A stretch of DNA of 64,000 nucleotides from Schmidtea polychroa (taxonomy: Eukaryota): positions 21,578,001-21,642,000 of the forward strand of contig CM097885.1 of the NCBI GenBank assembly GCA_044892525.1. Reading direction: 5' to 3'. Below, in pieces: positions 46,396-61,319 of the stretch. The notes beneath the pieces were generated by a model. That model was not told the DNA's origin and did not search any database. It saw only the letters and a list, made by a program, of their open reading frames with translations. Numbering within the stretch: the stretch's first letter is position 1; the number at the start of each line of letters is the position of its first letter. A program made the position numbers and the translations under genes.

Positions 46396-47345
46396 AGTAG
46401 TGTGTATATATACCCAACCAACACAACCCTCCCAACAAAAACATACCTCCATTACGCTTAAACCATTAGAAAAACAACCTAAAACTTATACTTTTATAGT
46501 ATTTTAACCCTATATTTTAAACAACAACCACCCTTAATCTTTAAAGCCTCAAACTCAAAAGCTTCAAACTAAAAAGAGAATAGAAAAGAAAATGGCATTA
46601 TGAAAAAGTTAGAGGGCTATTTGGGATAGGGCTATATACACACTACTTTTGATCGCAATCAAACTCCGGAGTTCATCTTTATCAGATTATTGATTTTAAA
46701 TTATATAAATTAAAAAATAAATGAAAAATAGTAAAACTGCTCTGAGGGGACAGTGGTATTTTTTTTTTATTCACTGTCCCCTCAACAGTTTTTTTGATCC
46801 GGATCATTTCAACCTCTTTCGTTTATCAAATCTCTTCCAATATACAAGCTGGCCAGACTCATACATCAGAATCAATTCGATAATAGCAGCACACCTTATT
46901 ATTCGCTTCTCGCTCGAATACGATTTCATCGGCGTTTTAAGCGTGCTGCTCGAAAGTACAAATGAATTCGAAAGTGAATTCGAAAGAGGTCCGAAAACAA
47001 CTGAGAAATAAATGTGCACATTAAAGAATCGATCCGGGGGTGTTCGAAAGACAGGTGGCGATAATTACCGGTTCGCCACCATCACCCGTTTCAATAATTT
47101 TTTTTTCATATTTATGTTTAAAAATAAAATAATTAAAAAAATAAATAAAATAAATAAAATAAATAAAATAAAATAAAATAAAAATAAATAAAATAAAATA
47201 TAAATCTAAGATACCCACACTATTATTTTCAAATTTTTAAAAAAAAAAAAACTAACCACAGTTAGGATTTGAACCACCATCCATTTGAACCACTGTGCCA
47301 GTCTAGCCCACTGCGCTATCTAGGTTTGGATTTTCCTCATTTTTT
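46396..47345 (+). repeat. Left TIR (~950 bp)
   Basis: Imperfect reverse complement of 60343-61319. Confidence 0.9.
47239..47326 (-). ncRNA. Putative Pol III tRNA-like small RNA unit (left TIR copy)
   Basis: A box TAGCGCAGTGG (47318-47308), B box GGTTCAAATCC (47275-47265), followed by a T13 run. Confidence 0.6.
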
Positions 47346-47424
47346 AGACTGTCACATTATGAAAATAAATATAAAAACATTAAAAATCAAAACAGGATAT
47401 CCAATAAAAAATTTTTTTTTAAAA

Positions 47425-50400
47425 ATGAATTGTAATATTTGTAATAAAGTTTTTAAAAATAAAACTGGATTAATTTCTCACTTAAAATCGAAAGCTCATT
47501 TATTAAAAGAAAACAATCTTAATGATACAAATTCAAAAGTTTGTCCTAAATGTAAAGGAAGATTTCTACATTCTGGATATAATAAACATTTTGAAAATTG
47601 TATCGGGAAAAATAGAGAAATATTTACATGTCCTCATTGTAACTTTTCAACAAAACTAAATTTCTATTATTTAGAACATATAAAAGAATGTAAAAATAAA
47701 AAACAAAATTCTGACGATGAGGAATGTCATTCAGAAGGAGAACCTGATCATGTTGAAAGAGAAAAATATAACTGGGATGATTTTAATCATGTAGATGAAT
47801 TTCAATTAGAAATCAATGGACCTATAACTCCTGGAGAATATATAAATAAAAATAAAAAAAATATTAAAAATTCTTTCACTGAAGCTTTAAAAAATTATAA
47901 ACCGACAAGGTATAATGTTATAAAATATAAAATTATAATCAAAGCAAAATACTGGCGAGGAGCAGAAGAAAAGACAACACCTTTAGATGTTGAAATTGGA
48001 ATACCCTTTAAATATTTATTTTCAACTAAAGGATTTGATAAAACCATCAAAGAAATAATTCAAGCAGTAGAAGCAAAACAAGAAGAGGTTGAAAATGAAT
48101 TAGGAGATTCAAACTTAGTATTCAACTCTTTCCAAACTTTAGTGATTGATTATTGGAGAGGATTACCACCTAATCCTAAATCTTATATTCCTACACCCTT
48201 TAAATCTAAAAATGTTATAAACATACAGAATAATGATAACAAATGTTTCGTCTGGTCAATACTTGCACATTTACACCCTCAAGAATCAAACCCTCAAAGA
48301 GTTTCAAAATACAAACAATATGAAAATGAATTAATATTTCCCAAAGGATACAAACATCCAATGAAACTAGAAGACATTCCAAAATTTGAAAGTTTAAATA
48401 ATCTTAAAATTAATATTTATGAACGTGTTAAAGGGAAACATGTTAATAGCAGAGAAATTATTCCAATTTATATTTCAGATTATGAAGTTAGAGATAATGA
48501 ACCCCAGGATAACACTAGGGAGATATATCTTTTAATTTTGGAACAAGAAAATAATCAACATTATGTTTTAATAAAAAACTTTCAAGCTTTTACATCTCCA
48601 GAGAATCCAACTAGTGGAGGAGGAACATGTAAAAGATGTCTTCATTATTCAACAACTAAAAACTCTATGATTAAACATACAAGATTTTGTGAAAAAGATG
48701 ATCCAGCTTTAATTAAAATGCCTAATAATCCCAAGATGTATTTTAAAAACTTTTCAAATTTACTACAAACAGTAGGAGTGCTTTATGGGGACTTTGAATC
48801 TATAAATCGTAAACAAGATTTGGTTAAACAATATTTAAAAATAATAGAAAAAAATAAACTCATGGATTCCTGGAACTCCTCGGGAGAGAAGATGAAACCA
48901 GAGAGGATGAAAGCCTTTCTAAGAAAAAGGAATAAACCTAATAGTGTTAAAAAAACTAAACAATTACCATCTGCTTATAAATTATTATTTAAAAGTAATT
49001 ATCCTGAACTCATAGAATCTAGTGAATATACATTTCGAGGAATTTCAGAAACAGAAGTCTTGAATCATTTTACTAAAAGTATAAATGATCTAGAACATGA
49101 AATATTTAAAGTATTAAAAACAAACTATCCTCAAAATATTTCTAATCAACAACAACAAGAATATGAAAACACTTCCAACTGTTGGATGTGTAAAAAACCA
49201 TTTGAAGAGTCTCCGAATATAAAAGTCATCGATCATGATCATTTAAAAAAGGAAAATAATTATCGAGGAGCAGCTCATAAAAATTGTAATCTTAATTGTC
49301 ATACTCCTAACTTTGTACCTGTTATATTTCATAATCTTTTTGGTTATGACATACATCTATTTGTTAAACATTTAGCAGCAAATGCTAAAAACTCTTTCAA
49401 AGTTATAGGACTTACAAAGGAAAAATATAAATCAGTTGAATATGGAAAATTAAAATTTATAGACTTGTTAAACTTTCTTCAAATGTCTCTAGATGGAATA
49501 GCTAAAACAATGAAACCAGAAGATTTTAAAATCACTCGAGAATTCTTGGAAAAAAATAATATTCCTCTAGAAGAATATCCTATATGTTTAGCAAAAGGAA
49601 TATATCGTTATGACTATGTTGAATCGTTTGAGAGATATAATGAAACAAGTCTTCCTAGCCAAGAAGATTTCTATTCACAACTTCAAAAAAATCATATTAC
49701 AAATCAAGAATATTCTCGAGCAAATAAAATGTGGGAATTATTCAAGTGTAAAACTTTAGGAGAATATACAAGTATGTATTTATCCTTGGATGTTTATATT
49801 CTAGCAGATTGCTTTGAAGAATTTACAAAATCTTTTGTTCTTAAACCTTACAATTATATAACAGCACCCTCTTTAGCTTGGGATACTTTATTATATACCA
49901 TTTGGACTTCAAATATAGAAGAAGCTGATAAAATTATAGATCTTTTAACTAACCTCGATATGTTTAATCTAATTAAAACAAACATTAGAGGAGGAGTCTC
50001 TTCAGTAATGGGGAATAGAGAAATAAAAGCTAGTAATGCAATAACTACTAGCAGAATGCTTTCAAAGACCTCTGATCCATATATAAAAATTAACAATGAG
50101 GAATTAAAAGAAATATTAGAAACAATGAAAAATCCTATATTTATACTTTATATAGATGCAACAGCTTTATATTCAGGAATTATGACTCAATATTTACCAA
50201 TGGGTGATTTCATTGAAATAGAATCATCAAAAGAACTTATAAAAGAAATACTTTCAACACCTAAAGATTCTCCAATAGGTTACTTTGTAGAATGTGACTT
50301 ATTATATCCAGATGATATAAAATCAGGAACAAGATATTTCCCATTAGCTCCTGTAAGAAGAAAGATTGATATCAACGAACTTTCTGAATGGCAAATCTCA

Positions 50401-60128: not shown

Positions 60129-60212
60129 AACCTTGATGGCGCAGTGGGCTAGACTGACACAGTGGTTCAAAATGCTAGCGGTTCAAATCACATCTGAGGT
60201 TAGTTTTTTTTT
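60129..60212 (+). ncRNA. Putative Pol III tRNA-like small RNA unit (right arm, inner copy)
   Basis: A box TGGCGCAGTGG (60137-60147), B box GGTTCAAATC (60180-60189), T9 run, terminal stem AACCTT/GAGGTT. Confidence 0.6.
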
Positions 60213-60342
60213 CAACATAAAATAATATTAAAAATTTGAAAATAATATTGAAAATAGTGTGGGTATCTTATATTTATAAAGTACTTGTATATTTTATTTT
60301 ATTTATTTTATTTTATTTTATTTTTTTTATAAATTAAAAATT

Positions 60343-61319
60343 AAAAAAATGACAAAAATTCAAACCTTGATGGCGCAGTGGGAATAGACTGGCACAGTGG
60401 TTCAAATGGATAGTGGTTCAAATCACATCTGAGGTTAGTTTTTTTTCAACATAAAATAATATTAAAAATTTGAAAATAATATTGAAAATAGTGTGGGTAT
60501 CTTATATTTATAAAGTACTTGTATATTTTATTTTATTTATTTTATTTTATTTTATTTTTTTATTAATTAATTATTTTTTAAACATAAATATGAAAAAAAA
60601 AATATTGAAACGGGTGTGGTGGCGAACCGGTAATTATCGCCACCAGTCTTTCGAACACACCCGGATCGATCCCATAATGTGCACATTTATTTCTCGGTTG
60701 TTTTCGGACCTCTTTCGGATTCGCTTTCGAATTCATTTGTACTTTCGAGCAGCACACTTAAAACGCCGATGAAATCGTATTCGAGCGAGAAGCGAATAAT
60801 AAGGTGTGCTGCTATTATCGAATTGATTCTGATTATGAGCCTGGCCAGCTTGTATATTGGAAGAGATTTGATAAACGAAAGAGGTTGAATAAAAAAAAAT
60901 GATCCGGATCAAAAAAACTGTTGAGAGGACAGTGAAAAAAAAAAATACCACTGTCCTCTCAGAGCAGTTTTACTATTTTCATAAAATTTTTTATTCTTCA
61001 AGACATCAAGATTAAGATTTCATTTATTTTTTTTAATTAGCCAATTAGCAACTTGCTAGTTGGCATTCTCAAGTAGCCTTCTAACTTTTTCATAATACCA
61101 TTTTCTTTTCTATTCTCTTTATGTTTTTAGTTTGAAGCTTTTGAGTTTGAGGCTTTAAAGATTAAAACAGTTAGAGTCATTAAGGGTGGTTGTTTTCAAA
61201 ATATAGGGTTAAAATACTATAAAAGTATAAGTTTTAGGTTGTTTTTCTAATAGCTTAAGTGATTTGGAGGCATGTTTTGTTGGGAGGGCTGTTTTGGTTG
61301 GGTATATAACCACACTACT
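60343..61319 (-). repeat. Right TIR, preceded by a ~235-bp tandem duplicate of its inner end (60110-60342)
   Basis: Reverse complement of the left TIR; 60113-60330 repeats at 60344-60560. Confidence 0.9.
60363..60446 (+). ncRNA. Putative Pol III tRNA-like small RNA unit (right arm, outer copy)
   Basis: A box TGGCGCAGTGG (60371-60381), B box GGTTCAAATC (60415-60424), T8 run. Confidence 0.6.

What the first reader, a model, noticed from the sequence alone, without database searches (positions are those of the whole stretch)
46396..61319. Complete endogenous adintovirus-like Polinton with both ends, TSD and full virion module
Seen: exact termini, CTTGAC TSD and ten tightly packed genes covering replication (pPolB), integration, packaging (ATPase), maturation (protease) and capsid (MCP, penton, pX, fibre-like). 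Inference: the family is probably able to form virions. The class is known, but this lineage and gene order may be new.
Basis: partly seen in the sequence, partly recalled or inferred. Interest (0 to 1): 0.7.

Follow-up and report, generated by a model that had tools for sequence, protein, structure and literature searches.

The report
Polinton with phospholipase-tethered integrase
A virus-like jumping element in a flatworm genome makes its integration enzyme as the tail of a membrane-piercing particle protein, and many relatives join the same two genes by a ribosome slip, which suggests these elements carry their integrase inside the virus particle much as retroviruses do.

Summary
The element is real: 14,924 bp, a CTTGAC target-site duplication, ~1-kb terminal inverted repeats and ten genes (OTU-pPolB, ATPase, protease, capsid, penton-like, pX-like, fibre-like). 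It belongs to a very abundant Maverick/Polinton family in a planarian-type genome. 'Complete' is overstated: this copy's integrase is frameshifted inside its catalytic core, and the two repeats are only about 91% alike.

The integrase is the C-terminal part of a zinc finger–phospholipase A2–integrase protein, lacks the usual chromodomain, and has Gly-Gly/Gly-x-Gly protease-type motifs on both sides of the PLA2 domain. Among 84 related loci, 34 fuse the two genes in frame. Another 20 hold the integrase in the −1 frame with no start codon, and 19 of these have an in-frame A_AAA_AAC slippery site (0.4 expected), often followed by a hairpin.

My best reading is a Gag-Pol-like way to load integrase into particles and free it by the viral protease. 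Slippage, packaging and cleavage are inferred, not shown. Ten literature searches found no report of the fusion or the frameshift.

The parts
46390..46395 (+). left target-site duplication CTTGAC
46396..47404 (.). left terminal inverted repeat, about 1.0 kb; about 91% identical to the right arm in matched columns, with arm-specific blocks
46633..46647 (-). inverted copy of the terminal 15 nt inside the left arm only; with the true end it brackets a 252-bp unit
   Evidence: single occurrence in the window
47244..47330 (-). tRNA-like unit in the inner left repeat (A-box, B-box, T-run); candidate Pol III transcript
   Evidence: not a tRNA by ARAGORN
47359..51741 (+). protein-primed DNA polymerase B, 1,460 aa: N-terminal C2H2 fingers, OTU-like domain (aa 266-420), endonuclease-VII-like zinc motif, exonuclease and polymerase motifs intact
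51853..52338 (-). 161-aa ORF with a hydrophobic stretch; function not assigned
   Evidence: no family hit
52456..53445 (-). 329-aa fibre-like / coiled-coil protein
   Evidence: PHROG tail fibre E 8e-8 over aa 35-90; N-terminus conserved in related loci
53470..54222 (-). probable penton (minor capsid protein), 250 aa
   Evidence: homologues beside the capsid gene in related loci; Atlas clusters of unnamed viral proteins at 0.98; fold attempt failed; the name rests on recalled motifs
54219..54674 (-). adenain-type cysteine protease (His75, Asp87, Gln112, Cys119)
54697..55563 (-). 288-aa protein conserved in related elements; function not assigned
55586..56191 (-). pX-like core protein with GG followed by a hydrophobic helix and four GxG repeats
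   Evidence: Adeno_PX E 0.027, below cut-off
56207..57007 (+). A32/FtsK-type packaging ATPase
   Evidence: PF04665 E 9e-9
57103..57483 (-). C-terminal piece of the integrase; ends without a chromodomain
57570..58481 (-). zinc finger + PLA2 (aa ~42-157, His-Asp dyad and GPG loop intact) + linker + N-terminal half of the rve integrase; GG motif before and GxG motif after the PLA2; frame breaks near its end in this copy
58511..59803 (-). [quoted passage not shown]
   Evidence: PF21738 E 3e-25
60108..60570 (+). 234-bp tandem duplication (95%) at the inner right repeat; each unit carries the tRNA-like A-box/B-box/T-run
60285..61319 (.). right terminal inverted repeat
61320..61325 (+). right target-site duplication CTTGAC

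Best explanation
This is one integrated copy of an abundant Maverick/Polinton (Alpha-adintovirus-like) family in a planarian-type host. It replicates with a protein-primed polymerase, packages its DNA into a double-jelly-roll capsid and integrates with a 6-bp duplication. In this lineage the integrase is not a stand-alone gene but the C-terminal part of a protein that begins with a PLA2 membrane-entry domain. This family fuses the two in frame. Many relatives make mostly PLA2 alone plus a minor PLA2-integrase product by a programmed -1 ribosomal frameshift. Most likely the PLA2 part takes the integrase into the particle, the element's own protease cuts at the GG and GxG motifs, and the incoming particle delivers both an entry lipase and a ready integrase, as Gag-Pol does in retroviruses. 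Shown: anatomy, the fusion, conservation of the slippery site and motifs. Inferred: actual slippage (about 0.9), cleavage (about 0.65), packaging (about 0.6). This copy's integrase gene is broken.
For: PLA2 and rve both pass Pfam cut-offs in one ORF. All 35 of 35 natural relatives chosen as fusions carry both. The closest relatives P0093 and P0366 span both window pieces in one ORF. Of 84 loci, 34 are fused and 20 have the integrase in the -1 frame with no ATG upstream. 19 of those 20 have in-frame A_AAA_AAC against 0.38 expected, with none in the other frames, in 15 clusters at 85% identity. A GxG/GG motif lies within 30 residues before the slip site in 19 of 19 (18% in control windows) and at the PLA2 end in 30 of 34 fused loci. 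A GG lies upstream of PLA2 in 26 of 31. The PLA2 His-Asp motif is kept in 32 of 34 and 19 of 19. Fused and frameshift forms are interleaved on the integrase tree. Precedent: mavirus virions contain the integrase, and its protease cuts at GG|X and GX|G (PMC6048507, passages).
Against: No ribosome, protein or particle data exist here. The hairpin is clearly stronger than shuffles (z < -2) in only 11 of 20 loci. The 7-locus stem is fully paired but does not beat the covariation shuffle (221 of 500). GxG may just be the normal end of the PLA2 family. Seven eukaryote-type integrases in the same search have their own ATG and no PLA2 upstream, so the coupling is not required. The locus set was found with an alignment of fused proteins, so its proportions are biased. 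The frameshift form is not in the window itself.
Confidence: 0.62

Rival explanations
1. The coupling only sets dosage and timing. Fusion or frameshift ties integrase synthesis to a late gene and keeps it low; the integrase works in the same cell, is not packaged, and the element spreads mainly as a transposon.
For: Low-level integrase or transposase made by -1 slippage is known from IS1/IS3 (recalled). The family has very many genomic copies. No particle of this lineage is known.
Against: An in-frame fusion, as in this family and 34 of 84 loci, does not lower dosage relative to PLA2. The PLA2 catalytic residues and flanking protease-type motifs are conserved in both forms.
Confidence: 0.25
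2. In the split relatives the integrase is made from a spliced or separately started mRNA, and the A-rich heptamer is incidental or marks assembly errors in homopolymers.
For: A-runs are error-prone. L037 and three +1 loci look like indel damage.
Against: The same heptamer, in the same frame, in 19 of 20 loci from 15 sequence clusters, and 0 in other frames. The stem keeps its pairs while the loop length changes. The first ATG of the integrase frame lies after the first catalytic Asp in the long loci L045, L054 and L056.
Confidence: 0.08
3. An ordinary decayed Polinton copy: the differing repeats reflect old age and the PLA2-integrase join is a local accident.
For: The repeats differ at about 9% of matched sites, and the integrase is broken.
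Against: Neutral decay at that level predicts about 32 premature stops in 11,565 coding bases; none is evident and there is one frameshift. The fusion recurs in dozens of relatives at 40-85% identity.
Confidence: 0.04

Closest known systems
Alpha adintoviruses / group 2 Maverick-Polintons (Starrett et al. 2021, PMC8502044; Buck et al. 2024, 10.1101/2024.03.25.586562)
   Same: [quoted passage not shown]
   Different: In those papers PLA2 is a separate gene carrying a C-terminal pX-like domain (PLA2X), and the integrase ends in a chromodomain. Here PLA2 is joined to the integrase, pX is its own gene, and this family has no chromodomain. Buck et al. note slippery sites for penton and hexon-adenain, not for PLA2-integrase.
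Mavirus virophage (Born et al. 2018, PMC6048507)
   Same: rve integrase found in native virions; a predicted alpha/beta hydrolase (MV13) processed in virions; clan CE protease cutting GG|X and GX|G.
   Different: Mavirus integrase and hydrolase are separate gene products. It depends on a giant virus and infects a protist.
Retroviral Gag-Pol and IS1/IS3 transposase frameshifting (recalled; no call)
   Same: An integrase or transposase made as a C-terminal extension by -1 slippage at an A_AAA_AAC-type site with a downstream structure; in retroviruses it is packaged and freed by the viral protease.
   Different: Here the carrier is a PLA2 minor protein of a dsDNA element, there is no reverse transcriptase, and many members use a plain in-frame fusion.
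Repbase Polintons of Schmidtea mediterranea (recalled; no call)
   Same: Same superfamily, related host group.
   Different: Could not be compared. The host here is not S. mediterranea by one receptor gene at 61% identity.

Membership tests
Maverick/Polinton (Polintoviricetes) | protein-primed PolB | tested here: met
   PF03175 E 1.6e-13; exonuclease and polymerase motifs present
Maverick/Polinton (Polintoviricetes) | retrovirus-like rve integrase | tested here: met
   PF00665 above cut-off; broken in this copy, one ORF in the closest relatives
Maverick/Polinton (Polintoviricetes) | terminal inverted repeats of 100-1,500 bp and a 5-8 bp target-site duplication (as stated in 10.1101/2023.08.22.554363) | tested here: met
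   about 1-kb repeats and a 6-bp CTTGAC duplication
Maverick/Polinton (Polintoviricetes) | packaging ATPase, maturation protease, double-jelly-roll capsid | tested here: met
   PF04665 and PF21738; protease profile hits S273R E 1.8e-8 and adenain E 1.2e-4
Maverick/Polinton (Polintoviricetes) | [quoted passage not shown] | tested here: inconclusive
   single-sequence model unusable, pLDDT 34.5; Atlas hits are unnamed; homologues sit beside capsid genes in related loci
Alpha adintovirus (Starrett 2021; Buck 2024) | OTU-like domain at the PolB N-terminus | tested here: met
   model pLDDT 89.8; the first 31 structural matches are nearly all OTU-type domains, best Z 7.2, rmsd 3.3 over 97 residues, a middling score; Cys and His motifs present
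Alpha adintovirus (Starrett 2021; Buck 2024) | integrase with a C-terminal chromodomain | tested here: not met
   the ORF ends a few residues after the last conserved motif; 0 of 35 fused relatives have Chromo; present in some other relatives
Alpha adintovirus (Starrett 2021; Buck 2024) | PLA2X gene: PLA2 with a C-terminal pX-like domain | tested here: not met
   PLA2 is fused to the integrase and pX-like is a separate ORF
Alpha adintovirus (Starrett 2021; Buck 2024) | hexon and PolB reciprocally recognisable to the Mayetiola/Terrapene references | not testable with these tools
   the reference proteins were not available as stored sequences; the supplement was cut and its protein files were not seen
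Programmed -1 ribosomal frameshift (relatives only) | in-frame X_XXY_YYZ heptamer with the -1 frame open to the second gene | tested here: met
   20 of 20 have one, 19 being A_AAA_AAC; one of them (L037) is probably an indel
Programmed -1 ribosomal frameshift (relatives only) | stimulatory structure a few bases downstream | tested here: inconclusive
   z < -2 in 11 of 20; 63 of 63 cells paired in 7 hand-picked loci, but the shuffle control is not exceeded
Programmed -1 ribosomal frameshift (relatives only) | transframe protein detected | not testable with these tools
   needs a reporter assay, ribosome profiling or mass spectrometry

The most novel reading that the evidence does not exclude
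A broad lineage of Polintons has converged on the retroviral Gag-Pol strategy. The integrase is synthesised as the tail of a virion phospholipase, by in-frame fusion (this family) or by a conserved -1 ribosomal frameshift (relatives), switching between the two more than once. It is thereby packaged, released by the viral protease and delivered with the genome, so these elements can integrate on entry as true viruses.
Probability: 0.55. Interest if true: 0.82.

Novelty: new variant of a known kind. Interest (0 to 1): 0.66.

Why it matters
Whether animal Polintons travel as particles, and how an incoming genome integrates before its genes are expressed, is an open question. A genetic tether between the integrase and a presumed virion entry protein is direct sequence evidence for a packaged integrase. 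It gives three cheap tests: a frameshift reporter, protease cleavage in vitro, and particle proteomics. It also warns annotators that many Polinton integrases called from the first ATG are truncated and miss a catalytic residue. A high-copy family in a planarian, an easily kept animal, offers a natural place to look for particles.

Tried and rejected
No whole genome was held, so copy number and empty sites could not be counted directly.

Locus searches with the capsid protein found nothing in metagenome or viral contigs or in phage records. The capsid profile had no match among solved structures. The single-sequence penton model was unusable. Foldseek gave no OTU match at E <= 0.001, only weak OTU rows.

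No RNA holder was listed among sequencing runs; run X12 is only guessed to be RNA, so expression is untested.

This suggests an empty allele, but the joint was not displayed, so it is not claimed.

The idea that this copy's own break is a programmed frameshift was rejected: it lies inside the catalytic core, far from the junction used by relatives; the window's linker has no A_AAA_AAC; and the closest relatives are continuous. Neutral decay as the cause of the repeat asymmetry was rejected.

The tRNA-like unit is not a tRNA by ARAGORN, has no Rfam match near a gathering score and folds no better than shuffles.

The tree is the quick version (the careful search did not finish) and left out 11 loci with under 150 integrase residues.

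Literature searches and term look-ups in 14 papers found no report of PLA2-integrase fusion or frameshifting. Subscription papers, Repbase, bioRxiv supplements and most of the Starrett supplement were not seen, and annotated maps there could already show the fusion.
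Full report
OBSERVATION. The boundaries are as stated. CTTGAC lies at 46,390-46,395 and 61,320-61,325, directly outside termini that read AGTAGTGTG and CACACTACT. The terminal inverted repeats are about 1 kb. They are imperfect: 923 matches, 90 mismatches and 37 gap events in a local alignment. The left arm holds an inverted copy of the terminal 15 nt at 46,633, and the right arm a 234-bp tandem duplication. Eleven long ORFs fill the interior; they make ten genes because the integrase is in two pieces.

GENES. Pfam gives pPolB (E 1.6e-13), A32 ATPase (9e-9), double-jelly-roll capsid (3e-25), and in one ORF both PLA2 (7e-9) and rve (2.5e-9), all above their cut-offs. The protease has invariant His, Gln and Cys, and a six-sequence profile hits ASFV S273R (1.8e-8) and adenain (1.2e-4). 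PolB residues 266-420, folded with 40 relatives (pLDDT 89.8), match OTU domains almost throughout the top 31 rows, though with a middling best Z of 7.2. 114 of 150 PolB relatives share this region. This is the Alpha-type PolB of Starrett et al. The 329-aa ORF has a tail-fibre hit. The penton and pX names are likely but less well tested. The 161-aa and 288-aa ORFs stay unassigned.

HOST AND FAMILY. A flanking receptor gene is 61% identical to Schmidtea mediterranea GCR038, so the host is probably another planarian. No genome was held. In four sequencing runs, contigs cover the element from end to end at 90-99+% identity. Summed depth in run X5 is about 150,000-350,000 inside the element against 20-53 for single flank contigs. 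The tool warns that this is no copy number; I read it only as 'very many copies'. One X1 contig spans the right junction. Seven full-length capsid proteins of the same cluster are 95-97% identical and the next clusters 72-74%. The best PolB representatives at 50% clustering are at most 40% identical.

THIS COPY IS NOT INTACT. The closest natural relatives of the integrase protein, P0093 (463 aa) and P0366 (470 aa), cover both window pieces in one ORF. The window changes frame at about 57,570-57,590, between the second Asp and the Glu of the catalytic triad. Family contigs in all four runs show a length difference at this place, so the break is a lesion or a sequencing error of this copy. The repeat asymmetry cannot be simple age: at that divergence about 32 premature stops are expected in 11,565 coding bases, and none is evident. 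The inserted molecule most likely already had unlike ends, by recombination between subfamilies or as a family trait. I could not tell which.

PLA2-INTEGRASE COUPLING. A search with the broken ORF gave 177 hits, of which 120 were listed, many with both PLA2 and rve. 30 of the 120 passed a strict three-motif filter. Among these plus the window, 26 of 31 have GG just before the PLA2 domain and 31 of 31 have GG or GxG just after it. In an alignment of 35 natural fusions all have both domains and none has a chromodomain. With that alignment I fetched 84 loci (4 viral; the best 80 of 86 metagenomic). Classification: 34 fused in one ORF; 20 with the integrase in the -1 frame behind PLA2 and no ATG upstream of its core; 3 in the +1 frame; 9 with no PLA2 upstream (two of them weak, bacterial-type hits); 16 cut off by the contig end; 2 without the integrase N-terminus.

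THE SLIPPERY SITE. 19 of the 20 '-1' loci carry A_AAA_AAC in the PLA2 frame within the overlap, against 0.38 expected and none in the other two frames; the twentieth has A_AAA_AAA. They fall into 15 clusters at 85% nucleotide identity. The next 70 nt fold better than shuffles with z < -2 in 11 of 20. One locus, L037, has no structure and is probably an indel. In seven hand-picked loci a 9-bp stem six bases downstream is paired in 63 of 63 cells while its loop varies in length; its covariation does not exceed the shuffle control. All 19 loci kept have GxG/GG within 30 residues before the slip site, against 18% of control windows. Two fused loci keep an in-frame A_AAA_AAC in the linker. On a quick integrase tree of 52 rows, fused and frameshift forms are interleaved, and well-supported branches force at least two changes for each label. 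Chromodomains occur in some frameshift and fused relatives, so their absence is a trait of this sublineage. The sample is biased towards fusions, and the hosts of the metagenomic loci are unknown.

MECHANISM. Shown: the architecture, the conservation of the fusion, of the heptamer and of the flanking motifs. From established knowledge: Polinton-type lipases are thought to be packed in virions for entry (PMC4642659, passage; PMC8502044). Mavirus virions contain the integrase, and their protease cuts GG|X and GX|G (PMC6048507, passages). A_AAA_AAC with a downstream stem is a classic -1 signal (recalled). Inferred: the PLA2 moiety carries the integrase into the particle, the protease frees both, and the frameshift, where present, sets a low integrase-to-PLA2 ratio. 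I put this at about 0.6. The main rival is pure dosage control without packaging (0.25).

COMPARISON. It is a member of Maverick/Polinton by every feature I could test. It works like an Alpha adintovirus but fails two features given for that group, the chromodomain and the PLA2X layout, so I do not file it there strictly. Gene order differs among close relatives and is not a strong novelty.

Papers seen: PMC8502044, parts 1-3 of 6, a supplement search and the supplement's first part (the slides and protein files were not readable or not reached). Buck et al. 2024, passages and sections 8 and 16; it mentions slippery sites only for penton and hexon-adenain. Passages only: 10.64898/2026.06.19.733378, PMC3671162, PMC5803895, PMC11296320, PMC6048507, PMC6431247, 10.1101/2023.10.06.561300, PMC10120064, PMC4642659, 10.1101/2023.08.22.554363, PMC11071308, 10.64898/2026.10.13.758929. 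Ten searches returned no report of the fusion or frameshift. Repbase and unseen supplements may hold annotated examples.

EARLIER NOTES. Sequence and word look-ups found nothing on this element or the coupling. The same genome has 34 notes that fit Polinton/Maverick words; the eight shown concern other, mostly TBP-bearing elements. No TBP gene appears among this element's ORFs.

VERDICT. A real, nearly full-length Polinton of a known class, with a broken integrase in this copy. It represents a variant in which the integrase is tethered to a phospholipase, by fusion here and by a conserved frameshift in relatives. Interest 0.66.

Noticed in passing
window 47,244-47,330 (-), 60,125-60,211 (+), 60,360-60,446 (+): tRNA-like unit in the inner repeats: A-box, two B-box-like motifs and a T-run, pointing towards each terminus. 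These are the only matches to the (recalled) A/B-box pattern in 64 kb, with 0 in shuffles, but they are copies of one unit and the pattern was chosen after seeing them. Candidate Pol III small RNA like adenovirus VA RNA, or a SINE remnant.
   Followed up: partly
window 46,396-46,647: The left arm alone carries an inverted copy of the terminus 252 bp in, so the left end is a small unit with two ends of its own; possible seed of non-autonomous mini-elements.
   Followed up: partly
window 46,396-47,404 and 60,285-61,319: The two repeats differ far more than the intact ORFs allow by age; unexplained (recombinant or family trait).
   Followed up: partly
L016 and L017, PLA2-integrase linker: In-frame fusions that still hold an in-frame A_AAA_AAC; possible relics of the frameshift state.
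   Followed up: no
L055, L059, L060: PLA2 and integrase fused through a 233-243 aa insert of unknown nature.
   Followed up: no
window 51,470-51,741 and 47,359-47,700: PolB has about 90 extra C-terminal residues beyond where relatives match, and what look like three N-terminal zinc fingers (Pfam matches the first).
   Followed up: no
window 58,511-58,560; 53,410-53,445; 51,980-52,000: GG motifs near the capsid C-terminus, the fibre-like N-terminus and in the 161-aa ORF; possible further protease sites.
   Followed up: no
window 54,697-55,563: The 288-aa ORF has a weak Atlas lead to DUF8422 clusters of molluscs and arthropods (0.88).
   Followed up: partly
window 29,467-33,882 (+) and 5,914-8,207 (+): Two gypsy-like LTR retrotransposon remnants with gag and broken pol frames (read from translations).
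   Followed up: no
window 16,085-17,077 (+), 36,128-36,862 (-), 45,078-45,413 (-): Three related GPCR-like host sequences, two of them with a long ATT microsatellite in or just before the frame; one was searched and matched planarian receptors.
   Followed up: partly
window 1,710-2,327 (+): ORF ending in a RING-finger-like motif of the IAP type (by eye).
   Followed up: no
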